A stretch of DNA of 38,932 nt from Chiloscyllium plagiosum (Eukaryota): assembly GCF_004010195.1 (NCBI RefSeq), contig NW_025214875.1, positions 1 to 38,932 of the forward strand. The letters are read 5' to 3'. A model generated the notes under the pieces. That model saw only the letters and a list, made by a program, of their open reading frames with translations, made no database searches and had not been told where the DNA came from. This document shows, one piece after another, positions 2,206-38,319 of the stretch. Both the position numbers and the translations under genes were made by a program. Position 1 is the first letter of the stretch; the number at the start of each line of letters is the position of its first letter.

Positions 2206-2229
2206 AAACACAATCAAACTCTACTTTTT

Positions 2230-3660
2230 TTACTCCGATTGGGAGTAGGTGTGAATGTAAAGGTGTTTGTGCCCATTGGGATAGTGCGGGGTGAGAGTGT
2301 ATGGGAATGGTTATGAGTCCATTTGGAGCGTGTCGAGCGGGAGAGTACAGAAAGGATTTTGTGTCCATTGGTACAGTGTAGTGTAGGACTGAACTGGAAG
2401 GGGTTTGGGTACATTTGGATGATGTCGATTGGGAGTGAATGGAAAGGAGTTCGGGTCAATTTTGACGGTGTAGATTGGGAGTGAACGGGAAGGTGTTGGG
2501 CGACATCGGGATGGTGTCGAGCTGACGTAAATGGGGAGAGCTTTGGGTCCATTAGATGGTGTAGAGTGGGACTGAACGGGAAGAGTTTTGGGTTCCATAG
2601 GAATGGGGGTAGAATGGGAGTGAACAGGCAGGGGTTTGCATCCATTGGGATGGTATAGAACAGGAGTGAACGGCAAGGGGTTTGGGTTCATTGGACGGTG
2701 TGGTGCGGCAGTCAATCCATTAGGGTTTGTGTCCATTGTAATTTCATAGAATGGGATGGGAAAGCAGGGGTTTGGGTGCATTGGGATGGTGTAGAGTGGG
2801 AGTGCTCAGGAAAGGGTTTGGGTCCATTGGGAGTCAGTTGAGTGGGAATAAATGAGAAGGGGTTTGAGTTCATTGGGATGGTGTAGAGTGGGAGTGCTCA
2901 GGAAAGGGTTTGGGTCCATTGGGAGTCAGTTGAGTGGGAATAAATGAGAAGGGGTTTGAGTTCATTGGGATGGTGTAGAGTGGGAGTGCTCAGGAAAGGG
3001 TTTGGGTCCATTGGGAGTCAGTTGAGTGGGAATAAATGAGAAGGGGTTTGAGTTCATTGGGATGGTGTAGAGTGGGAGTGCTCAGGAAAGGGTTTGAGTC
3101 CATTGGGAGTCAGTTGAGTGGTAATAAATGAGAAGGGGTTTGAGTTCATTGGGATGGTGTAGAGTGGGAGTGCTCAGGAAAGGGTTTGGGTCCATTGGGA
3201 GTCAGTTGAGTGGGAATAAATGAGAAGGGGTTTGAGTTCATTGGGATGGTGTAGAGTGGGAGTGCTCAGGAAAGGGTTTGGGTCCATTGGGAGTCAGTTG
3301 AGTGGTAATAAATGAGAAGGGGTTTGAGTTCATTGGGATGGTGTAGAGTGGGAGTGCTCAGGAAAGGGTTTGAGTCCATTGGGAGTCAGTTGATCGGAAA
3401 GAGGTTTGGATCCATTGAGATGGCATAGAGTGGGACTGAATAGGATACGTTTTGAATCCATTTGGATGGTTGAGAGTGGGACTGAATGGGAAGGCATTTG
3501 GGGAACATTGCGATGCTGTAGAGTGGAAGCGAATGGGAAGGGTTTTGGGTACGTTGGGATGATACAGAGTGGGAATGAACAGGAAAGGGTTTGGATCCAT
3601 TGGGATGGTGGAGAATGGGAGTTAACGGAAAAGGTTTTGCATCCATTGGGGATGGTTGTT
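2230..3660 (+). repeat. G-rich ~46-bp satellite containing a homogeneous 92-bp dimer array (about 2781-3392)
   Basis: Unit is approximately gggtttgggtccattgggatggtgtagagtgggagtgaacggaaa; ttgggatggt recurs at 2781, 2873, 2965, 3057, 3149, 3241 and 3333. Confidence 0.95.
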
Positions 3661-3749
3661 GTCCTACTGAAACCACAAGTTCTCCGTTCCTCACAGTTCC
3701 AGTTAGCTCTCCCTTGTCTCCCTGCACATCTCTGTGCCCTATCTTTTGC

Positions 3750-4299: not shown

Positions 4300-7200
4300 T
4301 GGTGCTACACAGAGTAACAGATACCCGGGACTGAGATACAGATGGGAACCAAATCTAGGGGTTTCCAATGTTTTATGCATATACAATAACAAATACCTGG
4401 GAGTGGATTACAGTTTGGTATCTAGCTAAAATCTTCAGAGTGATTTACTTCCAAAATAACAGAAACCCCGGAGTGACGTACAGACTGGACTCTAATCGGA
4501 GGGTTCAGGGTGGTTTATATCGAGAATAACAGACACCCGGGAATGAGTTAATGAGTGGAATCTAATTGTAGATTTCAGATGGTTTAGAGAAAGTCTATGC
4601 GAAATCTGAGAGTGAGGTACAGATGCAGAATATGATCGAGGGATTTGTGCGCAGAATAAGTTATATGTAGAATACCCAGGTGCTAGTTACAAACTGGAAT
4701 CGAGTCGAGGTATGCAGGGTCGTTAATGTGAAGAATAACAGACAGTTTAGAGTGAGTTCCAGACTGGAATCTAATCGAAGGCTTCAGTGTGGTTGATAAA
4801 GAGAAATACAGCTACCTGGAATTTAATTACAGACTGGAATTTTATTGAGGCATTTAGGGTAGTTTAACATGGAATAATATATCCGGGAATGATTTACAGA
4901 CTGAAATCTAATCCAGGAATTTTGTTTATTCATATGTGCAGAATACCCGGGAGTAAGTTACAGACTGGAATGTAATCGAGAGTTTTGGGTGGTTTAAATA
5001 CGGAATAATAAATACCCGAGAAGGAGTTACAGACCGGAATATAATAGAGGGGTTTGGGTTGGTTTCGATATGGAATAACAGATATGTAGGGATGAGTTAC
5101 AGACTTGATTTTAATCGTGGTGTTCACTGAGGTTTATAGATAAAATATTAGATATCCAAGAGTGGGTTACAGCCTGCAATCTATTTGAATTGCTCAAGGT
5201 GGTTTGCATGTATAATAACAGACACAGGAGTGAGATACAGACCTGAATCCATTTCAAGTTTTCATGGTGGCTTTTGGATGGAAGAACAGATATCCAGAAG
5301 TGAGTTTCACACTGGATTTTAATCGAGGATTCAGGTTGAAATCTGTCCAGAATAACACATATCTGGGAGTGAGTTACCAACTGGAATCTAGTCATGAGTT
5401 TCAGGGTGGTTTATATATAGAATAATAGGAATCTGAGAGTGAGTTACAGACTGGAATCCAATCGAGGGTCTCAGGATGGTTTAAACATAAAATCACCCGT
5501 ACCTCGGAATGACTTACAGACCAATCTAACGAGGGATAAAAATGGAATAACAGATAACTCGAAATGATTTACAAAGTGGAATCTAATCCAGGGTTTGTCG
5601 CGTTTAATACAAAGAATAAGAGATAACTGGAGTGAGTTACAGACTGGAATCTAATCGAAAGCATTAGTGCGGTTTATGTACAGAATAACAGATAGCCAGG
5701 ATGTAGTTTCAGACTGGATTCGAATCGAGGGTTTTTAGGTGTTTGTGTGCAGATCAACATATATCTGGGTATGAGTTGCAGACTGGAATGTAATCGATGG
5801 GTCCAAGGAGGTTTCAATATAGAATAAGATATATCCAGAATTGAGTTACCGACTGAAAACCATTCAGGGTGGATTACATATAGAATAACACATATCTGGG
5901 AATGAATTACAGACTGAAATCGAGTCATGGGAGATGTTATCTCTTTTAAATAATGGGGAACCGGGAGTGAGCTACTGACCGGAATGTAATTGAGGATTCG
6001 GGGTGGTAGATTCCTGGGAGTGAGCTACAGACTGGAATCTAATTGAGGATCTCAGATATTTTATATCAAGAATATGAGATACCTGGGGGTGTGGTGCAGA
6101 CCCTGGATACAATTGAAGGTTTTCTTTTGGTTTCTATGTAGAGTAAGTGGTACCCAGGAGTGAGCTACCTACTGGAACCCAGTCGAGGTCTTTAGGGTCA
6201 TTGAAGTATAGAATAACAGATAACTGAGCGTTAGTCACATACTGGAATCTAATCAAGGGAATCGGGGTGGTTTATATAGACAATAACATATACCTAGGAG
6301 TGAATTACAGACTGGAATTTAATTGAGGCGTTCAGAGTTTTTAAACACGGAATAACAAATAACCGGGAATAATTCCAGACTGGAAAATAGTCCAGGGATT
6401 TGTGGTGGTTATTATGTATAAAACAGATATCCGGGAGAGAGTTACAGATTGGAATATAATTGAAGGGTTCAGGATGGTTTTGAAACAGAATTAAAGATAC
6501 CCAGGTGTGAGACACAGACTCGAATTTGGTTCAGGATTTGGGGTGGTTTGTGTACATAATTGAAGATACCCTGGTGTAAGTTACAGACTGGAATCTAATC
6601 GAGGGCTGGGGTGTACAATAACAGAGCCCCAGGGTTACAGACTTCAATCCAATTCAGGTTTTCAGGATGGTTTTTGGTAAAAGAACAGGTATCCAGGAGT
6701 GAGTTACAGACTGGAATTTAATCGTGGGTTTCAGGTTGGTTTATGTACTGAATAAAACATATCTAGGAGTGAGTTACCCACTGGAATCGAGTTAAGAGTT
6801 TCAGTTGGACCTGGTTTATATACAGACTGCCAGATACCTCGGAGTGAGTTACAGACTGAAGTTTAATTGAGGCGTTCAGGGTTGTTTAGATATAGAATAT
6901 CAAATACCCGGGAGCGAGTTACTGACAGGAATGTAGTCAAAGGGGTTCGGGTGTTTTGTACGTCAAATAAGACATATCTGCAAGTGTTTTGCAGGACGGA
7001 ATCTAATCGAGGGGTTTGGTATAGTTCAAACATGCAATAACAGATAGCTGGGAATGATTTACAGGCTGGAATCTAATCCAGGGATTTGCGAAGATTTCAA
7101 TTAAAGATACCTGGGATTGAGTTACAGACTTGAATTTAATAAAGAGTTTCAGTCTTGTTCTCCGTCGAGTAACAGATCCACACTATTCAGTTACAGCTTG

Positions 7201-9700
7201 AAATTTATTCGACCCGTTCAGCGTAGTTTAAAATAACACAGACTTAGAAGTAAGTTACAGAATGGATTCTAACTTAAATATTCAATATGCTTTATGTATA
7301 GAATAACAAATACCCAGGAATGTCTTACAGACTAGAATCTAATCCTGAGGTTCAGGATGTTTATATATAGAATAGCAGATGGGGTGGAGTGAGTTAAAGA
7401 CTGTGATGTCTTCGAGGTGTTCAGGATGATCTATTTCCAGAATAACATACACATGGGAGTGAGTTACAAACTGGAATATAATCAATCAGTTCAAAAGGTG
7501 GTTTATATGTAGAATAACAGATATCCAGGAGAGAGTTACAGACTAGAATTTAATCGAGGGCTTCAGGGTGGTGTATATAAAAAGTCGCACACACTTGGGA
7601 GTGAGTTACAGACTGGAATCTATTCGAGGGGTTTGGGGTGGTTTATATGTAGAATAACAGATATCCAGGAGAGAGTTACAGACTAGAATCTAATCGAGGG
7701 GTTCAGGGTGGTGTATATAAAAAGTCACACATACTTGGGAGTGAGTTACAGACTCGAATCTATTCGAGGAGGTCAAGATAGTTTATATATATATATAATG
7801 TCAGTTACGTAGGAAAAAGTTATAGACTGGAATTTAATTGCGGTGTTCCAGATGATATTAAAACATTGAATACGACATACCTGGGAGTTGTTTACAGACT
7901 GAAATCTAATGGTGTGATTTATGATGATTTATATAGCGATTAAAAGATAGTTGGGATAATCTCGGCGTTCAGTGTGAATAATCTAGGAGTTCAGTGTATC
8001 GAATAACAGTTAAGCAGGAGTGAGTTATAGACTCTTACCTAATTGAGGGGGTCAGGATGATTTATACATCAAATAACAGATACGCAGAAGTGAGTTAAAA
8101 ACTAGAATCTAATCGAGGGTTCGGCGCAGTTTATATACAGAATAACAGGTACCAAGAAATGAAGTACAGACTGGAACCAATGCGGTGTTTCAGGGTAATT
8201 TCTATACAGAACACCAGTTATCCCGAAGTGAGGTGCAGACTGGAATCAAATTGAGGGGATCAGGGTGGTTTACATACAGAATAGTAGATACCTGGCAGTG
8301 AGTTACACGCTGGAATCAAATGGAAGGGTTGGTAGTGGTTTATACACAGACTAACAGATAACCGGGAAGGAGTTAAAGACTGGAATCTAATCGAGGTTGC
8401 AAGGTGATTTATAGATATAATACTAAAATCCCAGGAGTGAGTTACACACTGGAATCAAAAGGAGAGGGTCGGGATGTATTATGCACAGACTAACGATACC
8501 CAAGAGGGAGTTACAGACTGGAATGTATTGGAGGTGTTCAAGGTGAGTTATGTATAGAATACCAGATGCCTAGGAATGAGGTACAGTCTGGAACCTAATA
8601 CAAGGTTTCTGGCTGTTTTACATACAGAATACCAGTTACCTGGAAGTGAGTTGCAGATTGGGATATAATCGAGGTGTTCGGAATGGCTTACATATAGAAT
8701 AACTGCTACCCATGAGTAAGTTGCAGACTGGAATGGAATCAAGGTATTTATAATGGTTTATATATTGAATAACAAATGCTCAGGAGTGAGTTACAGACTG
8801 GAATCCGATCGATGGGTTTGGGGTGGTTTATATACATAATAATAGTTACCCGGGAGCGAGTTACAGACTGGGATCCAATCGAGGAGATCAAAGCTGCTTA
8901 GATATAAAATAAATGATACATTGGTGTGAGTTAAAAACTGGAATCTGATTGAGTGCTTCAGGATGGTTTAGATATAAAATAACACATACCTGGGAGTGAG
9001 TTACAGGCTGGAATCTAATTGAGGCTTTCAAGCGTGTTGAATAACAGATACCGGGAGCGAGTTGCAGACTGGAATTTTGTAGATACGTTCAGGATGGTTT
9101 AAAATGAGATAACAGATGCCTGGGTATATCTTTCTTTTACTGGTAGGAACCTAATGCTGCGATTTATGACGATTTAAATATCGAAAAACAGATACCTGGG
9201 AGTGAGTTACAGACTGGAATATAACCAAGGGTCTTGTGGTGGTTTCGATGCAGAATAATAGGTCTTTGGGAGTGGGTTACAGACAGGAATCTCATCGAGG
9301 TGACCAGGTTGCCTTTTTACATCGAATAACAGACTCCTGAAAGTGAGTTACAGACTGAATTGCTTTCAAGGGGTTCATGGTGGTTTTCGTACAGAATAAC
9401 AGCTCCCTGGCAGTGATGTACAGACTGGAATCTGATGGAGGAATTTGGCATGGTTTATATACAGAGTAACAGGTAGCCTGGAGTGATGTACAGACTGGAC
9501 TCTAATTGAGGGATTCGGCAACGTTTATATATAGACTAACAGGTACCCGAGAGTGATGCCCAAACTGAAATCTGTGGAAGAAGAGATAACTGCAACTGCG
9601 TTACAGACTGAAATGTAATCGAGGTGTTCAGATTGGTTTATATATAGACAGAAGACTCCCAGGAGTGAGTTCCAGATAGGAATCTAATCGAGGGGTTCAA
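4300..9700 (+). repeat. 70-bp tandem satellite, roughly 75 diverged copies
   Basis: Consensus gagtgagttacagactggaatctaatcgaggggttcagggtggtttatatatagaataacagatacccgg; near-perfect 140-bp dimer repeat (gagagttacagactagaat at 7531 and 7671). Confidence 0.95.
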
Positions 9701-10976: not shown

Positions 10977-11084
10977 CAATAGTTTAAGCACTACACTCCC
11001 CTTAAAAGCTCATAAAACTGTTATGGTTAGCACAAACACCATCAACACTCACTCACCTTAGGGCAATGCTCTGAACAGAGCCGA

Positions 11085-11266
11085 CAGTATGGTGCTGGAA
11101 AAGAACAGCAGGTCAGGCAGCATCCGAGGAGCAGGAGAATCGACGATTCAGGCATAAGCCCTCCATCATTTCTTATGAAGGATTTATGTCGAAAACGTGG
11201 ATTTCCCTGCTCCTCCGATGCTGCCTGACCTGCTGTGCTTTTCCAGCACCACACTCTCGACTCTGA
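11085..11266. mobile_element. Palindromic Penelope-like terminal-repeat relic with decayed hammerhead cores
   Basis: tggtgctggaaaagaacagcaggtcaggcagcatccgaggagcagg and its reverse complement cctgctcctccgatgctgcctgacctgctgtgcttttccagcacca; the centre reads cttatgaaggatttatgtcgaaaacg. Confidence 0.7.
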
Positions 11267-12534: not shown

Positions 12535-12883
12535 ATTCGCAGTTGGACCCACCAGCGGAGCAAAATGCCATTTGGGTATGCAAAACAGGGCACTCTTCTC
12601 TTTCTCTGCCTGCTCTTCCGGGGTGGCCTCAGCGCCTGCACCACGAGCACCATCAATGAGTGCCACAATGCTAACTTTGTGCCGGGGGCGCGGCTGGCGG
12701 GGCAGGGCTACGATGTGGTGACGCTGCAGCCCAAGGGGGCCTTTGTCATCGATGTGAACACCTGGCGCACGGCCAACGGGAGCAGCACTCTCTGTGAAAA
12801 TGAGCTGATGAATGGCGTGCGCCAACGGATGCCCGTCTCACTGATGGACTGGCGCACCCTGAGCTCATGCCGGCGCTCAGTCT

Positions 12884-13584
12884 TGTTTTAAAAAATTCTC
12901 AAGGTCAGGTTCGTAGGAGAGTAGTCTGACACAGAACAAACAACCAAGAGGCGAGTCTGCTAGAATATGAGCATTTTATTCCCCGCAGCGTCGCCAAAAC
13001 CGGGTCTCATCTTACAACGGGTCTGGCTTATACTCACTCTACATGTTACCGGAACTGGGAGCCGTCAGTTCTCGTAGAGCGGTTGCCAACAACCCACGCT
13101 CGGCGGTTAAACGTAACCCCGGAGCAGACTCCCGGGTCTGGCTTATACTCACTCTACATGTTACCGGAACTGGGAGCCGTCAGTTCTCGTAGAGCGGTTG
13201 CCAACAACCCACGCTCGGCGGTTAAACGTAACCCCGGAGCAGACTCCCGGGTCTGGCTTATACTCACTCTACATGTTACCGGAACTGGGAGCCGTCAGTT
13301 CTCGTAGAGCGGTTGCCAACAACCCACGCTCGGCGGTTAAACGCAACCCCGGAGCAGACTCACCGAACTGGAGACTTTTCCAGCTGATATACTCTTTTCC
13401 AGATATAAACATTCATGTGAACAGCAGAGCAAGGCTAAAAAACACATTCCATTCTGGTTACATACAGATAAGAAGATTCACACGGGACTAAGCAACACCT
13501 CCATTCCGGTTAGATTCACACATGTATTGGGACATAATTTTTAACCGTTTCACCACATTCCACTGCTTGGAATTTTACACCACA
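12884..13584 (-). mobile_element. Solo LTR (701 bp) inserted antisense in perforin
   Basis: Begins TGT and ends ACA; TSD AGTCT at 12879-12883 and 13585-13589; imperfect terminal inverted repeats (tgttttaaaaaattc vs tgtggtgtaaaattc). Excision restores the frame RRSVSSRLYRSPAKLAES. A - strand AATAAA at 12975-12980 is followed by a GT-rich element. Confidence 0.9.
13018..13361. repeat. Three tandem 115-bp units inside the LTR
   Basis: Units start at 13018, 13133 and 13248; identical except one substitution (acgta to acgca) and a divergent end in unit 3. Confidence 0.97.
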
Positions 13585-14785
13585 AGTCTCCAGTCGGCTT
13601 TACCGATCGCCGGCCAAGCTGGCAGAGTCCGCCAGCTCCTCCATCACCAACGACTGGTGGGAGGACCTGTCCGTGCAAACACCCAAAGCTGGTGTCAAGG
13701 TGGTGCTGGCTGGATCCCATTCCAAGATGGTGGAGTTTGGCACCACCCACTCCCAGAGCGATCGCTACAGTTTCACCAGTCAACAGTTCCAATGCTTCTA
13801 CTACCAGAATCGGGTGAAGGGCAAGCCCCTCTTGGCTCCTGATTTTCAACGCTCCCTCTCTAGTCTACCAGCCAGCAACGTTGGCAATGACACATACCTC
13901 TACCAGAAGCTGGTGGCCACCTACGGTACCCACTACCTCACAGCGGTGCAGCTGGGCGGACGTTACAAGGACGTGACGGCTTTTCGGACGTGCAAGGCAG
14001 TTTATGAGGGCTACACTGCCGAGGAGGTTAAGGACTGCCTTACGGTGGAGGCTGGTGTCACGGTCGGCCTCACCACCAAATTCTCGGAGGGCTACAAGCG
14101 ATGCCAGGAGAAGGCGTGCTCCATGAAGCACAGCAACTTCCACCAGGCCTTCAGCGACCGGGAGACGGGGGGCCGGGCCGGGACCTCTGGGGGGGACGTC
14201 TTCTCGGGCACCGACGGCTACGTGGTGGGCATGCACGGCCAGGCACAGGCCAGGACCTCCGTGATCTCTTAGGCAACAACAACCCCAAGTGGAACGCCAA
14301 GCTGGACCTTGGCCAGGTCAAGACCGATAGCGGGAACAATCTGAGCATCGGGGTCTGGGATGAGGATGTCATAACAAGCAATGACCTCCTGGGCTAGTGC
14401 CAGGTCAGACTGATCTCCGCCACCCATGGCAAGGTCTGCTACCTCAGCTATGGCAAGGTGACCTACGACTACACCTTCACCTGCGGCCCCCACCTGGGTG
14501 GCACCACCTGCCAACATTACATGGCCAGCCCTGGCAGTGTTCCCTTCACCACTGCCGTGCATGCAACCGTCCACATCCTCCTTCTCAACCCACACTTTCC
14601 CAACACCCGCTCCAAATCGCCATTCCCCATTATCTAATTCCCCTGACCTTTAACTCTGACAGTGTCTTTCCCAGACTGTATCCTTGCTATCCCCATTGTC
14701 GCATTGTAAGCCCTGGACAACATGGGAAGCTCTATGCCATTACACCAAAACGCTTTGAAGGCTTTGTCTAATCTTTCACTTTCTC

Positions 14786-31498: not shown

Positions 31499-32297
31499 CG
31501 TAGTTATTGTTACATTGTTCATTCAGAAACACAGATAATAAGGCGTGAACCAGGGTTGGCGCCACTCTATGGCATATTGTCGAATTTTGATTCAATCAAT
31601 AAACGAGTCCAACAATGACGAGGAAACTTTTGCCAATTGTTAGGAATAAAATGCATCAGGTTCCATACAAGCCTAAAATGACACCACCCGGTGAAGGTCC
31701 GAAACAGTGACTATCCTGGTCCACCAGCCCCAATCTCAATTCTGAGCAAAGGTGGCTGTGGCCACTTGGGAGTCAACCTGGAAATGGTTCCAACTTGCAC
31801 CAGAGGGAATTATCTCAAAATAAGGGATCGCCGATTGAAGACAGAGATGAAGACAGCTTTTTCCTCTCCGTGAGGATTGAGTCTATGGGACTCTCGATCA
31901 TAGAGGGATGCTGTGGTTGGGTCATTCAGTATATTCAAGGCTGAGAGAGAAAGAGACTGAGATTTCTAATCAGACTGGAAATGGAGATATCGTCTAGGAA
32001 AGTGGTGTTGGGAACTATTGAATTAGCCATGATCTCAGTGAATACCAGAGACGTTTCAATGGGCCAACTGGCTTCCTCCTGTTCCTCTGTCTAACTGATT
32101 TATGATTGGGCACACTCGCCTGGCGTTGGCCGGTGTGGGGGAGTGTGGATTGTGCTCGGTGATGAGAAAGACTAGGACGCTGGGCTCCCCAGTGTTAAGT
32201 CCATCGCTCGGGTTACACAACAGGAATCACAACAGAGGAGAGATCTGTGGAGGCAGACACAGGGAAGGATCTGTAAACCACCAGCACAGTAACTTAC

Positions 32298-32394
32298 CGG
32301 GAACAGCAACAGCAGCGAGGAGCGGGTCGTATACTTGCTCGATTCTGAGGAGGACAAAATGCACCTGATTTGATGTTTCGATGCTTATTCCCAT
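32298..32394 (-). CDS. GPR139-like: GPR139-like gene B, coding exon 1 (proximal copy)
   Basis: Encodes MGISIETSNQVHFVLLRIEQVYDPLLAAVAVP followed by G|GTAAGT; phase 1 fits exon 2 (g+cc = Ala). Confidence 0.88.
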
Positions 32395-33249
32395 TTTTCC
32401 TGTGCACCAGAAGGTTCAGTATTCTCAGGCTCCAACCTCTCCTTGCTCTGCTCTCTGGATCTTGCTTGTGCCCCTCGCAGTGTGAGACCCCACCTCAAAA
32501 TGTGCGCTTATTAATCAGAGAAAGCGTCCCTTCAGGGACACAATCAGCGCGCTCAGAGACTGGGATTCATTTACTGAACAAACCACTTGGGTTAACCCCT
32601 TCTCCTCACAACAGCCTCTCCACTGCTTCACGCTTCCTAAAGGATTATGGCTTTGTCTGCTGTTGGGAAAGGACGATGGGAATAAAGGATAACAAAGTGG
32701 ACCGACTCTGTTGTATAAACACTGGGGAATTTGGCAAAGATAGCAAAGTGTATTTATAACTGATCACGTGTATGTTGCCCACTGAAGAATGCTACTCTGC
32801 GGCTGAGTGCTACCAAGTGCCTGTGTGCTATAGAAAGGCTGCTTGAGAATCGCCCTTGCATTGGTTGAGATTCCCTTTTGGGTGCTTTGTGTCCAGGAAT
32901 GTGTGGGAAAGGTGCTTGTGGAAAGAGATTTGGCGAATCTCCGCATTGTGTCTTATAGATGGTGCAGTGGTGTGTGCGTGGGGGAGGGAGTGGGAGTTTG
33001 TGGATGGCATGCCAATCGAATGGATCCCTTTATTCCTGGATGGTGTCACACTTTATGGGGGGGAGGAGGGGGGGGGGCACGGACAGCAGATCCGAGTCAT
33101 AATTTCTACCTTTATCTTCACAATGAAACAAAATACAAATCCTCATTGATTCTCAAATCTCGCCTTACTATTGCAGGACAAGGCTTCCGAGTAAGCAATC
33201 CCAGGAATCACATTTCAATTCCGGCTTGGCGTTTCAGCAAAAGACTCAG

Positions 33250-33525
33250 GAATGTGTGACTTTTGGGGCAATTGTCAACGAAATGTGTGAAGCAGGTTTC
33301 TCACACAAAGAGTGGTGAGTGTCTGGAACGCGCTGCCAGAGTAAATGATGGAAGCAGACGCAATAGCAGAGTTCAAGAAACGCCTGGGCGAATTCATCAT
33401 AGGGAAGGGAAGAGAGGGAGGTGGATCCTGCAAGTAAAACCAGTTTTAGTTTGGAAGGGCAAAATATATCAGCGCAGGCTTGGGAGGCCGAAGGGCCTGT
33501 TCCTGTGCTGTTCTCTTCTTTAGTC
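33250..33525 (+). mobile_element. CR1 3' end fragment (duplicated at ~36770-37016)
   Basis: Contains tcacacaaagagtggtgagtgtctggaacgcgctgcc...ggccgaagggcctgttcctgtgctg. Confidence 0.8.
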
Positions 33526-33707
33526 TTGATCCCATTGTTCGAGCAGAATGATATAGCAAAGTAATCGAATCGATGACTATGCTTTAAACCCAAGAGCCTT
33601 TGTTTCCAGCCCCATTCACCAAAAAAGACAGACAGGCAAACTCAGTTGAGGAAGGTCAACTCCTCCCAACCTCTTACAATTACCAAATTCATGCTGTTAA
33701 ATGTCTG

Positions 33708-34815
33708 GGAACAAAGAACAAAGAAAATTTACAGCCCAGGAACAGGCCATTCGGCCCTCCAAGCCTGAACCAATGCAAACCTACTGTCTAAACCTGTCGC
33801 CCAATTCCGAAACATCCGAGTCCCTTTGCTCCCACCTACTCTTGCATCTGTCCTGACGCATCTTTAATGAATCCATCGTGCCTGACTCTACTACCTCTGC
33901 TGTCAACGCGTTTCAGGCACCTACCACCCTCTGCGTGTATCCCCCTTAAACTTTCCACTTCTCACCTTGAAAGCGTGATGTCTCGTTATTGAATCCTTCA
34001 CTCTGGGAAAAAAGCTTATCTCTATCTAACCTGTCTATAACCTTCATAATTTTGTAGTCCTCAGTGAAGTCCCCACTCAATCTCCTTTTTTTCCGAATGA
34101 AAACAATCCTAACCGATTCAATCTCTCTTCATAACAAGCACTTTCCATAGCAAGCAACATCCTTGTAAAACCTTCTCTGCGCCCTCTCCACAGCACCCAG
34201 ATCCGTTTGCTAATGGGGCGACCAGTACTGTACACAGTATTCGAAATACGGTCTTGTACAAAATTAACATGACCTGCCAGCTCTTATACTCAATGCTCTG
34301 TCCGATGAAGACAAGCATACTAAATGGCATCTTGACCACTCTACCCAGCCATGCTTTCAGGGTACAATGGACCAGAACTCCCAGATCTCTCTGCTCATCC
34401 ACTTTTCCCAAGGCTCTTCCGTTTACTGTAAAATTCGCTCCAGAATTAGACTTCCCAAAACGCACCACTTCACATTTACCTGGATTGAACTCCACCTGCC
34501 ACTTCTCCGCCCAACTCTCCAGTCTATCTATATCCTCCTGTATTCTTTAACAGACCCCTATGCTTTCTGCTACTCCACCAATCTTCGTGTCATCTCCAAA
34601 CTCTCTGATCATTTTCTCAGGTTCGACACACAGACTTCCTTATCCTTTAGTTGACTAATCCTTTCTCTAGTTACCTGCTTGCTTCTTATATAAGAATAAA
34701 AGGATTTGGGACTCTCCTTAATTCTGCTCGCTAAAGCTATTTCGTGACCCCTTTTAGCCCACTTGATACCTCGTTTAAGACTGGGCCAACTCTCCCAATA
34801 TTCCTCCAGGGCCTT
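33708..34815 (-). mobile_element. CR1 LINE fragment with an internal deletion
   Basis: MEFNPGKCEVVRFG is joined near 34608 to the KRGHEIALASRIKE region; same family as 26475-29880. Confidence 0.88.
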
Positions 34816-35798
34816 CTGGGAGTTGGAAGCGTGCCCAGATTTGCACCAATTGCAACTTGTCCCCATTTGGGGAGAGTTTGCTGAGTATGTGGAGAAGCAG
34901 ATGTTTTGGCGAAGACAAGGTTTCAATGAGGCAAAGAAGATGGTTGCACGTCATTGATATGAGTCCTCTACCAGGCCTGGAATGGTCCGTTGAATGGAGA
35001 GGGAAAAGTGATTGGTCAATGTCAGTCTCTTTCTGTCATTGTGCCTGTCGCTCTGTCTCGCTGCAACCTGATTATTCCTCTCCTTCTCTCTGTCTTTCTC
35101 TCCCTCCACCTCTCTCTCTCCCTCTCTCTCTCTCTCTTGCTTTCGCTCTTTCTCTCCCGGTCTCTCTTTCTCTCTCTCTGTCTCTCTGTCTTTCTCTCTG
35201 TCAGTCTCTCTGTCTATTAGAGCAGCTGATCATGCGACTGGCAGCCTGTGTTGCGTTTCGTTCCTGCCTAAACCCTTTCGGGCATGTTTTACGTTTTCCT
35301 GTTGTTATGGGGGTGAGTTGCCACAGTCACTTTCCAATGCACCAGGTCAGTATTACACTGTGTAATCTGGTCAGAGGCCTTCTGGAAATCTGATTCGATC
35401 ATAGAGGGATGCTGTGGTTGGGTCATTCAGTATATTCAAGGCTGAGAGAGAAAGAGACTGAGATTTCTAATCAGACTGGAAATGGAGATATCGTCTAGGA
35501 AAGTGGTGTTGGGAACTATTGAATTAGCCATGATGTCAGTGAATGCCAGATAAGTTTCAATGGGCCAACTGGCTTCCTCCTGTTCCTCCGTCTAACTGAT
35601 TTATGATTGGGCACACTCGCCTGGCGTTGGCCGGTGTGGGGGAGTGTGGATTGTGCTCGGTGATGAGAAAGACTAGGATGCTGGGCTCCCCAATGTTAAG
35701 TCCATCGCTCGGGTTACACAACAGGAATCACAACAGAGGAGAGATCTGTGGAGGCAGACACAGGGAAGGATCTGTAAACCACCAGCGCAGTAACTTAC

Positions 35799-35895
35799 CG
35801 GGAACAGCAACAGCAGCGAGGAGCGGGTAGTATACTTGCTCGATTCTGAGGAGGACAAAATGCACCTGATTTGATGTTTCGATGCTTATTCCCAT
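35799..35895 (-). CDS. GPR139-like: Duplicate GPR139-like coding exon 1 (distal copy)
   Basis: Encodes MGISIETSNQVHFVLLRIEQVYYPLLAAVAVP followed by G|GTAAGT; intact 97 nt. Confidence 0.85.
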
Positions 35896-37016
35896 TTTCC
35901 CTGTGCACCAGAAGGTTCAGTATTCTCAGGCTCCAACCTCTCCTTGCTCTGCTCTCTGGATCTTGCTTGTGCCTGACGCACTATTCCCCTCGCAGTGTGG
36001 GACCCCAACTCGAAATGCGCACTTATTAATCAGAGAAAGCGTCCCTTCAGAGACACAATCAGCGCGCTCAGAGACTGGGATTCATTTACTGAACAAACCA
36101 CTTGGGTTAACCCCTTCTCCTCACAACAGCCTCGCCACTGCTTCACGCTTCCTAAAGGATTATGGCTTTGTCTGCTGTTGGGAAAGGACGATGGGAATAA
36201 AGGATAACAAAGTGGACCGACTCTGTTGTATAAACACTGGGGAATTTGGCAAAGTTAGCAAAGTGTATTTATAACTGATCACGTGTATGTTGCCCACTGA
36301 AGAATGCTACTCTGTGGCTGAGTGGTACCAAGTGCCTGTGTGCTAAAGAAAGGCTGCTTGAGAATCGCCCTCGCATTGGTTGAGATTCTGTTTTGGGTGC
36401 TTTGTGTCCAGGAATGTGTGGGAAAGGTGCTTGTGGAAAGGGATTTGGCGAATGTCCGCATTGTGTCTTATAGATGGTGCAGTGGTGTATGCGTGGGGGA
36501 GGGAGTGGGTGTTTGTGGATGGCATGCCAATCGAATGGATCCCTTTATTGCTGGATGGTGTCACACCTTATGGGGGGGGGGGGCACGGACAGCAGATCCG
36601 AGTCATAATTTCTACCTTTATCTTCACAATGCAGCGAAATACAAACCCTCACTGATTCTCAAATCTCGCCTAACTATTGCACGGCAAGGCTTCCGAGTCA
36701 GCAATCCCAGGAATCACATTTCAATTCCGGCTTGGCGTTTCAGCAAAAGACTCAGAAATGTGTGACTTTTGGGGCAATTGTCAACGAAATGTGTGAAGCA
36801 GGTTTTTCACACAAAGAGTGGTGAGTGCCTGGAACGCGCTGCCAGAGTAAATGATGGAAGCAGACGCAATAGGAGCGTTCAAGAAACGCCTGGACGAATA
36901 CATCATAGGGAAGGGAAGAGAGGGAGGTGGATCCTGCAAGTAAAACCAGTCTTAGTTTGGCAGGGCAAAATATATCAACGCAGGCTTGGAAGGCCGAAGG
37001 GCCTGTTCCTGTGCTG

Positions 37017-37634
37017 NNNNNNNNNNNNNNNNNNNNNNNNNNNNNNNNNNNNNNNNNNNNNNNNNNNNNNNNNNNNNNNNNNNNNNNNNNNNNNNNNNNN
37101 NNNNNNNNNNNNNNNNNNNNNNNNNNNNNNNNNNNNNNNNNNNNNNNNNNNNNNNNNNNNNNNNNNNNNNNNNNNNNNNNNNNNNNNNNNNNNNNNNNNN
37201 NNNNNNNNNNNNNNNNNNNNNNNNNNNNNNNNNNNNNNNNNNNNNNNNNNNNNNNNNNNNNNNNNNNNNNNNNNNNNNNNNNNNNNNNNNNNNNNNNNNN
37301 NNNNNNNNNNNNNNNNNNNNNNNNNNNNNNNNNNNNNNNNNNNNNNNNNNNNNNNNNNNNNNNNNNNNNNNNNNNNNNNNNNNNNNNNNNNNNNNNNNNN
37401 NNNNNNNNNNNNNNNNNNNNNNNNNNNNNNNNNNNNNNNNNNNNNNNNNNNNNNNNNNNNNNNNNNNNNNNNNNNNNNNNNNNNNNNNNNNNNNNNNNNN
37501 NNNNNNNNNNNNNNNNNNNNNNNNNNNNNNNNNNNNNNNNNNNNNNNNNNNNNNNNNNNNNNNNNNNNNNNNNNNNNNNNNNNNNNNNNNNNNNNNNNNN
37601 NNNNNNNNNNNNNNNNNNNNNNNNNNNNNNNNNN
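37017..37634. other. Assembly gap
   Basis: Run of N. Confidence 1.
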
Positions 37635-38319
37635 TCTCCTTAATTCTGCTCGCTAAAGCTATTTCGTGACCCCTTTTAGCCCACTTGATACCTCGTTTAA
37701 GACTGGGCCAACTCTCCCAATATTCCTCCAGGGCCTTCTGGGAGTTGGAAGCGTGCCCAAATTTGCACCAATTGCAACTTGTCCCCATTTGGGGAGAGTT
37801 TGCTGAGTATGTGGAGAAGCAGATGTTTTGGCGAAGACAAGGTTTCAATGAGGCAAAAAAAGATGGTTGCACGTCATTGATATGAGTCCTCTACCAGGCC
37901 TGGAATGGTCCGTTGAATGGAGAGGGAAAAGTGATTGGTCAATGTCAGTCTCTTTCTGTCATTGTGCCTGTCGCTCTGTCTCGCTGCAACCTGATTATTC
38001 CTCTCCTTCTCTCTGTCTTTCTCTCCCTCCACCTCTCTCTCTCCCTCTCTCTCTCTCTCTTGCTTTCGCTCTTTCTCTCCCGGTCTCTCTTTCTCTCTCT
38101 CTGTCTCTCTGTCTTTCTCTCTGTCAGTCTCTCTGTCTATTAGAGCAGCTGATCATGCGACTGGCAGCCTGTGTTGCGTTTCGTTCCTGCCTAAACCCTT
38201 TCGGGCATGTTTTACGTTTTCCTGTTGTTATGGGGTGAGTTGCCACAGTCACTTTCAAATGCACCAGGTCAGTATTACACTGTGTAATCTGGTCAGAGGC
38301 CTTCTGGAAATCTGATTGG

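What the first reader, a model, noticed from the sequence alone, without database searches (positions are those of the whole stretch)
13018..13361. Triplicated 115-nt unit made almost entirely of hairpins in the putative R region of the LTR
Seen on the - strand of each unit: GGAG-tctg-CTCC; GGTTA-cgtt-TAACC; GAGC..GGTTG-ttgg-CAACC-GCTC; and CTCTAC...GTAGAG enclosing GAACTG-acggctcc-CAGTTC. The last two stems compete for CTC, and GGCTCCC could pair with GGGAGTC at the unit junction. The units lie between the TATA-like box and the polyA signal, so they would be transcribed. Inference: a multimerised cis-acting RNA element (TAR/RxRE-like, export, dimerisation or an unknown ribozyme). I could not match hammerhead, HDV-like, twister or hairpin ribozyme cores by eye. 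Alternative: U3 enhancer repeats if the LTR is + oriented (TATAAA at 13404-13409).
Basis: partly seen in the sequence, partly recalled or inferred. Interest (0 to 1): 0.7.

Follow-up and report, generated by a model that had tools for sequence, protein, structure and literature searches.

The report
Stuttered R region, shark endogenous retrovirus
The three 115-base repeats are real and sit in a lone terminal repeat of a shark endogenous retrovirus; most family members have one copy, and the extra copies are likely a copying slip of reverse transcriptase that repeated the predicted hairpin-rich start of the viral RNA, not a new ribozyme.

Summary
The repeat is confirmed: three 114-nt units joined by one extra G. 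It lies in a 701-bp minus-strand solo LTR (12884-13584, 5-bp target duplication) inserted in a broken perforin-like gene. The family is an ERV-L/XtERV-S-like class III retrovirus (tRNA-Ser primer site, dUTPase after integrase) with about 1,300 LTRs. One unit is the norm; an estimated 8% carry 2-18. RNA reads show poly(A) after AATAAA on this strand, and 12 reads cross a unit junction. Four indirect signs put the transcription start at the unit's first base: a TATA-like box at -30, a hypervariable -1 base, loss of the in-unit TATA in one subfamily, and linkage of unit alleles to U5. No 5'-end data were available. Folding is modest (z about -1.8). Variants shared by several loci break fewer stems than expected (3 vs 8.1), but there is no two-sided covariation. 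No ribozyme was found. Best reading: an ordinary structured 5' half of R, repeated by misaligned minus-strand transfer, with the junction G likely copied from the cap.

The parts
12884..13584 (-). Solo LTR (701 bp, TGT...ACA) of a class III ERV family
   Evidence: flanks identical
12879..12883 (.). 5-bp target site duplication, copy 1
13585..13589 (.). 5-bp target site duplication, copy 2
13362..13584 (-). U3 (inferred); base 13362 is the hypervariable -1 position
13385..13391 (-). TATA-like box starting 30 nt before the first unit; reads TATAAG or AATAAAA in other subfamilies
13248..13361 (-). Unit 1 (114 nt); its first G is the inferred transcription start; carries A18G
13247..13247 (-). Extra junction G, likely copied from the cap
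   Evidence: table 5c
13133..13246 (-). Unit 2 (114 nt)
13132..13132 (-). Extra junction G
13018..13131 (-). Unit 3 (114 nt): three predicted hairpins (unit positions 6-35, 38-51, 52-96) and a splice-donor-like site overlapping TATAAG (G+1 at 13037; also 13152 and 13267)
12958..13017 (-). 3' part of R with AATAAA (12980-12975) in a predicted hairpin; poly(A) addition maps to 12963-12958 by homology
12884..12957 (-). U5; predicted to pair with the gag-AUG region in two-LTR copies
12565..12883 (+). 5' piece of the interrupted perforin-like reading frame (no Pfam hit; likeness to perforin N-terminus is recalled)
13590..14397 (+). 3' pieces of the perforin-like gene: MACPF domain, then a C2 piece in another frame ending at a stop

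Best explanation
The repeat is three copies of a 114-nt segment that is single in most LTRs of a class III endogenous retrovirus family, and this segment is likely the structured 5' part of the R region, likely repeated by misplaced minus-strand transfer during reverse transcription. Shown: the solo LTR, its orientation, the poly(A) site, transcription across unit junctions, the single extra G at the junctions, and unit numbers from 1 to at least 16. Inferred: (1) transcription starts at the unit's first G; (2) reverse transcriptase once copied the cap as a C and re-primed 114 nt downstream, fixing the junction 'unit end + G + unit start'; (3) once R held two units, out-of-register strand transfer and template switching added or removed units in later rounds; (4) the single unit works as the 5' hairpins of a retroviral leader, beside a poly(A) hairpin, a U5-AUG stem and a U1-binding site, probably serving poly(A) control and packaging. 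The extra units are probably tolerated passengers. In this solo LTR they can only act as part of a promoter or terminator antisense to a dead perforin-like copy.
For: Orientation and 3' end: tRNA-Ser primer sites follow the CA end in 30 rows, some duplicates. The genome's tRNA-Ser(TGA) matches one type. 121 of 547 laid RNA reads carry A-tails 12-17 nt after AATAAA. Copy number: 1,319 first-unit boundaries versus 222 junctions, exact patterns; the 100 listed junctions fall in 46 loci by my hand count, so about 100 LTRs (about 8%); 28 of the first 30 listed boundaries have no junction. Start site: TATA-like box at -30; five states at -1 (T 30, A 2, TA 2, C 1, G 1) among 36 LTRs identical over the 125 nt upstream, in nearly invariant flanks. 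HIV-1 and MLV gain G at -1 by cap read-through (10.1101/2024.12.04.626847, passages). The in-unit TATAAG becomes CATAAA in 4 of 30 loci that keep an upstream AATAAAA. Unit sites 89 and 105 are linked to U5 sites (r2 0.54-0.70) more than to U3 sites -38/-43 (0.15-0.25) in 98 distinct single-unit LTRs. Junction: 90 of 97 have the extra G, as do 12 RNA reads. Four unlinked loci share a derived junction variant, and neighbouring units share private changes, so arrays were inherited and re-expanded. Structure: of 24 variants found in 3 or more loci, 3 break pairs (null 8.1, P about 0.01) and 8 keep them through G-U; 7 break if read antisense; singletons show no deficit (17 of 33 vs 14.1). A single-unit leader folds at z -3.92.
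Against: No 5'-end data: the one informative RNA run appears 3'-end biased and shows no step or start pile at the unit start; the second raw-read run laid 0 reads. A TATAAG/TATAAA inside the unit has its own plausible start 30 nt on. Site +18 is linked equally to U3 and U5 (0.13-0.38 vs 0.24-0.39), and far U3 sites -158 to -170 still link to site 89 at 0.45-0.48. The sample is enriched for one subfamily. No pair changes on both sides against the commonest pair, and the covariation score is within shuffles (111 of 500). The structure was predicted from one of these sequences, so the test leans towards it. R alone from this copy folds at z -0.09. Nearly all junctions are identical, so the first duplication may be a single event, and one G could be chance. 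No homology explains the landing at +114.
Confidence: 0.7

Rival explanations
1. The unit is the promoter-proximal end of U3. The TATAAG in the unit is the real TATA box, R is about 45 nt, and the array is an ordinary promoter duplication transcribed only at 3' ends.
For: TATAAG/TATAAA at unit positions 100-105, with G105A in 69 loci, about 30 nt before a possible start. Reads over the unit are explained by 3' read-through. Per-unit folding is modest.
Against: The box is lost in a replicated subfamily (4 of 30). The 10-20 nt after the unit are often deleted. Unit alleles travel with U5. The hypervariable base is at the unit start. The motif also reads as a splice donor.
Confidence: 0.12
2. The unit is in R and extra copies are selected because they strengthen a cis-acting RNA function (export, dimerisation, or U1-dependent poly(A) suppression).
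For: Arrays recur on many U3 and U5 haplotypes, reach 16 or more units, were inherited and are transcribed. A second, different duplication of nearly the same segment shows in 4 reads. Each unit adds a U1-like site upstream of AATAAA, as in foamy virus R (PMC3694450, passages).
Against: About 92% of LTRs have one unit and the sizes fall off quickly (24, 10, 5, 6 loci with 1-4 exact junctions, one with 17, hand count). Triplication is predicted to disrupt hairpins 1 and 2 of the middle unit (P about 0.1). The second joint was not found in the assembly.
Confidence: 0.12
3. The unit is a self-cleaving ribozyme or a precisely processed short RNA, and arrays are rolling-circle cDNA of it, as in retrozymes.
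For: Precise unit ends, head-to-tail arrays of near-identical units, and shared private changes in neighbouring units.
Against: Rfam gave only chance matches, E at least 3.3. No hammerhead, twister, pistol, hatchet or hairpin core motifs (recalled motifs) were found in the units; the one HDV-L3-like heptamer is on the antisense strand and, by eye, lacks a closing P3. Poly(A) reads run through the unit end and the junction. An extra G fits a cap, not a circle.
Confidence: 0.04
4. The triplication at this locus is an assembly artefact.
For: The window is a whole small unplaced contig with gaps. No DNA reads were laid on this locus.
Against: 19 of 154 LTRs in hand have three units at unrelated loci (sample biased towards arrays). 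RNA reads cross the junction. Unit 1 differs from units 2 and 3.
Confidence: 0.02

Closest known systems
XtERV-S / ERV-L-like class III endogenous retroviruses (PMC8278194, passages read)
   Same: TGT...ACA LTR ends, tRNA-Ser primer site, 5-bp target duplication, dUTPase in pol, internally deleted copies that keep primer site, leader and 5' gag, many solo LTRs, and a long gap between TATA and poly(A) signal (283-287 vs 574-579 in XtERV-S).
   Different: Shark host (nearest gag-like hits are from Cetorhinus and Carcharodon). No sequence or tree comparison with XtERV-S was made. The passages read mention no tandem R units.
Prototype foamy virus R region (PMC3694450, passages read)
   Same: Long R (193 nt there; about 174 nt inferred here for one unit), splice-donor site in R upstream of the poly(A) signal, structured RNA.
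   Different: Use of the donor and poly(A) suppression are untested here. The gag and pol frames lie in line across one stop, whereas foamy pol is made from a spliced transcript.
IAP LTR R-region tandem repeats (PMC2861705, passages read)
   Same: A variable number of tandem units inside R that differs between LTRs of one family.
   Different: IAP units are 13-bp CT-rich cores. Here the unit is 114 nt, begins at the inferred start site and has a junction G.
Cap read-through at minus-strand transfer in HIV-1 and MLV (10.1101/2024.12.04.626847, passages; Kulpa 1997 and Volloch 1995 seen only in its reference list)
   Same: Changes to G and other letters concentrated at the -1 position of R.
   Different: There it gives a point change at the U3/R border. 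Here the same G is inferred to mark a whole-segment duplication.
HIV TAR / HTLV RxRE
   Same: Hairpins at the 5' end of a retroviral RNA, followed by a poly(A) hairpin.
   Different: No Rfam match, and no transactivator or export protein was identified.

Membership tests
Class III ERV (ERV-L/XtERV-S-like) | LTR with TGT...ACA ends and 5-bp target duplication | tested here: met
   (window); 20 of 30 rows with exact 5-bp flanks
Class III ERV (ERV-L/XtERV-S-like) | tRNA-Ser (or Leu) primer binding site | tested here: met
Class III ERV (ERV-L/XtERV-S-like) | pol order protease-RT-RNase H-integrase-dUTPase | tested here: met
Class III ERV (ERV-L/XtERV-S-like) | RT phylogeny groups with class III | not tested
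   No tree built; best solved-structure hits are MLV-type then foamy RT
Retroviral R region | 3' end is the poly(A) site downstream of the units | tested here: met
   121 of 547 reads with A-tails
Retroviral R region | 5' end (cap site) lies at or before the unit | tested here: inconclusive
   Indirect support; no start seen in reads
Conserved cis-acting RNA structure | Two-sided covariation above shuffles | tested here: not met
   0 of 30 pairs; score reached by 111 of 500 shuffles; 98% identity gives little power
Conserved cis-acting RNA structure | Replicated variants avoid breaking stems, sense strand | tested here: met
   3 breaks vs 8.1 expected, P about 0.01
Known self-cleaving ribozymes / retrozymes | Catalytic core or Rfam model match | tested here: not met
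Known self-cleaving ribozymes / retrozymes | Self-cleavage in vitro | not testable with these tools
   bench assay
TAR / RxRE | Rfam match or cognate viral protein | tested here: not met
   No Rfam match; three post-pol ORFs had no Pfam family

The most novel reading that the evidence does not exclude
These arrays are a fossil record of reverse transcriptase repeatedly jumping from the capped 5' end onto a short, precisely ended 114-nt R transcript (a TAR-like abortive or processed RNA), building cap-marked concatemers of up to 18 units in one round; the unit is a selected RNA element whose dose tunes poly(A) choice.
Probability: 0.12. Interest if true: 0.6.

Novelty: new variant of a known kind. 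Interest (0 to 1): 0.3.

Why it matters
The parts are familiar: a class III ERV LTR, a structured R, and length polymorphism made by reverse transcriptase. The modest new point is that the repeat unit appears to begin exactly at the cap site and to carry a cap-derived G. If so, about 100 genomic copies record strand-transfer errors in a shark retrovirus, and the start site can be read from DNA alone. It also gives a natural 1-to-18 dose series of an R element for tests of poly(A) control.

Tried and rejected
Rfam at E up to 10 over 12800-13700: 4 matches, all chance level. Ribozyme core scans with recalled motifs: negative. My first reading, that the unit is U3 with its own TATA, was dropped. 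Plus-strand orientation was rejected. A back-splice or lariat origin of the junction was rejected by eye: the nearest donor lies 2 nt past the unit end and the junction lacks those letters. A Pol III miRNA cassette was rejected by eye: no run of four T in the sense unit. Start-site mapping from reads failed; no RNA holder was listed among indexed runs, and run X20 laid nothing. A genomic copy of the second read joint was not found. Divergent homologues for covariation were not found: own-genome searches return only the best 40-60 candidates and no relatives' genomes are held. The tally was not properly de-duplicated; drop 20 overlapping loci. No tree was built. Paper searches found no description of R-region concatemers with a cap G or of this shark family; the library lacks most subscription papers, and no supplements were read. 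Earlier-findings look-ups returned nothing.

Full report
Observation. TRF finds 13018-13361, period 115, 3.0 copies, 99%. On the minus strand the array is three 114-nt units separated by one extra G. The listed inverted repeats are present, but folding is only modestly better than shuffles: z -1.84 sense and -1.72 antisense for one unit. The array's z of -3.44 is inflated by the repetition; against a shuffled unit repeated three times it is -1.64, reached by 8 of 100. Rfam gives only chance matches.

Context. The array lies in a 701-bp element, 12884-13584, with TGT...ACA ends on the minus strand and identical 5-bp flanks. It interrupts a reading frame whose 3' part has a MACPF domain followed by a C2 piece, that is, a perforin-like gene that is also broken elsewhere. 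The LTR is antisense to it.

Family. The own genome holds 1,319 exact matches to the U3/first-unit boundary and 222 exact unit-unit junctions. The 100 listed junctions fall in 46 loci by my hand count, so roughly 100 LTRs (about 8%) are multi-unit. Of the first 30 boundaries listed, 28 have no junction, and 20 rows show exact 5-bp flanks. Among 154 LTRs in hand, a sample biased towards arrays, unit numbers were 1 (118), 2 (4), 3 (19), 4 (5), 5 (5), 6 (2) and 16 (1, cut by the locus edge); one locus lists 17 junctions. Many two-LTR copies have only about 250-570 nt between primer site and 3' LTR. Two of four longer stretches show a 606-aa gag frame, one stop, and a 1,154-1,166-aa pol frame with protease, RT, RNase H, integrase and a C-terminal dUTPase. 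The primer site matches the genome's tRNA-Ser(TGA). These are the features described for XtERV-S and ERV-L (PMC8278194, passages). The only 2 protein hits to gag come from lamniform sharks. No RT tree was built.

Orientation and transcription. Raw poly(A) RNA reads of run X19, labelled as the same species as the best DNA holder, were laid on a single-unit copy: 121 of 547 reads have A-tails 12-17 nt after AATAAA, and 12 reads go back from the unit end to the unit start with one G between. Multi-unit LTRs are therefore transcribed. These reads may come from any family member and do not show that this locus is expressed. They show no start site.

Is the unit R or U3? Each unit ends in TATAAG, which first suggested U3. 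Four findings point to R. First, another TATA-like box begins 30 nt before the unit's first G and reads TATAAG or AATAAAA in other subfamilies, while the in-unit box becomes CATAAA in 4 of 30 loci; the in-unit motif also matches a splice donor at 8 of 11 positions. Second, the base before the unit is hypervariable: five states among 36 LTRs that are identical over the 125 nt upstream, with nearly invariant flanks (not fully de-duplicated). Cap read-through is reported to put a G at -1 in HIV-1 and MLV (10.1101/2024.12.04.626847, passages), and most first-strand transfers follow full-length strong-stop synthesis (PMC6088434, passages). Third, alleles at unit positions 89 and 105 travel with U5 (r2 0.54-0.70) rather than with U3 sites at similar distance (0.15-0.25) in 98 distinct single-unit LTRs. 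Against this, site +18 is equally linked both ways and distal U3 sites keep r2 up to 0.48 with site 89. Fourth, a long R is usual in related viruses: 193 nt with the donor inside R in foamy virus (PMC3694450, passages), and about 290 nt between TATA and poly(A) signal in XtERV-S. One-unit R here would be about 174 nt; this copy's would be 404 nt.

Structure. A natural single-unit leader, from the inferred start to the gag AUG, folds at z -3.92 into three unit hairpins, a poly(A) hairpin and a U5-AUG stem, although R alone from this copy folds at z -0.09. Across 251 units from 123 loci, variants found in 3 or more loci break 3 of 24 times against 8.1 expected (P about 0.01), 8 keep the pair through G-U, and pair 59-89 occurs as GU, GC and AU. 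Singletons show no deficit, and an antisense reading gives 7 breaks. The formal count on 69 distinct haplotypes finds no two-sided change and a covariation score within shuffles. The structure is thus plausibly under selection on the sense strand but not proven.

Mechanism. 90 of 97 junctions read unit end, G, unit start; 7 in four loci share one derived variant. Neighbouring units share private changes, for example six units in L029 and four in L023. Each of these steps is inferred. What guided the first landing is unexplained; a short RNA ending at +114 would explain it and is the novel case. Variable tandem repeats inside R are known from IAP LTRs, with 13-bp units (PMC2861705, passages).

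Verdict. Searches found no published description of this family or of cap-marked R concatemers, within a library that lacks most subscription papers. Novelty: new variant of a known kind. Interest 0.3.

Noticed in passing
L033, L036, L032, L048, L037 (5' vs 3' LTR): The two LTRs of single elements often carry different subfamily haplotypes (U5 differences of 5-7 in about 63 nt plus a 7-nt indel), even where the target duplication matches (L033). A canonical single reverse transcription should give identical LTRs; intermolecular plus-strand transfer or gene conversion could explain it.
   Followed up: partly
L043:1969-2530; L039:1980-2600: A second array, of about 80-bp units, precedes many 3' LTRs. 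Each unit holds a purine-rich stretch before a TG start, and LTR 5' ends vary accordingly, suggesting several plus-strand priming sites.
   Followed up: partly
primer sites: Eight primer-site variants look like mosaics of two tRNA-Ser types; only the TGA type was checked against a tRNA gene.
   Followed up: partly
L046:1272-1371, L056:1409-1508, L057: The upper stem of hairpin 3 is lengthened step by step in subfamilies (C80T, C81T, G82T, G59A); this may be selection for pairing or slippage in a T run.
   Followed up: partly
L033:1246-1560: Predicted poly(A) hairpin over AATAAA and a long U5-AUG stem with G-U pairs, as in other retroviral leaders.
   Followed up: partly
L033:1222-1344 (reads): Four RNA reads show a second, different back-joint of about 123 nt covering most of the unit; no genomic match was found.
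   Followed up: yes
window 12565-14640: The perforin-like gene is broken apart from the LTR too: a frame change between MACPF and C2 and a stop in C2. The genome has 19 matches to the MACPF piece, many in long open frames.
   Followed up: partly
window 2212-3696 and 4321-9603: Satellite-like arrays of 46/92 bp and 70 bp.
   Followed up: no
window 31894-38155: A tandem duplication with offsets of about 3.5 kb and 2.9 kb, 96-100% identical; it may be an assembly overlap near a gap.
   Followed up: no
window 11076-11265: Inverted repeat with 91-nt arms, 84% complementary, 8 nt apart; probably two copies of a short interspersed repeat facing each other.
   Followed up: no
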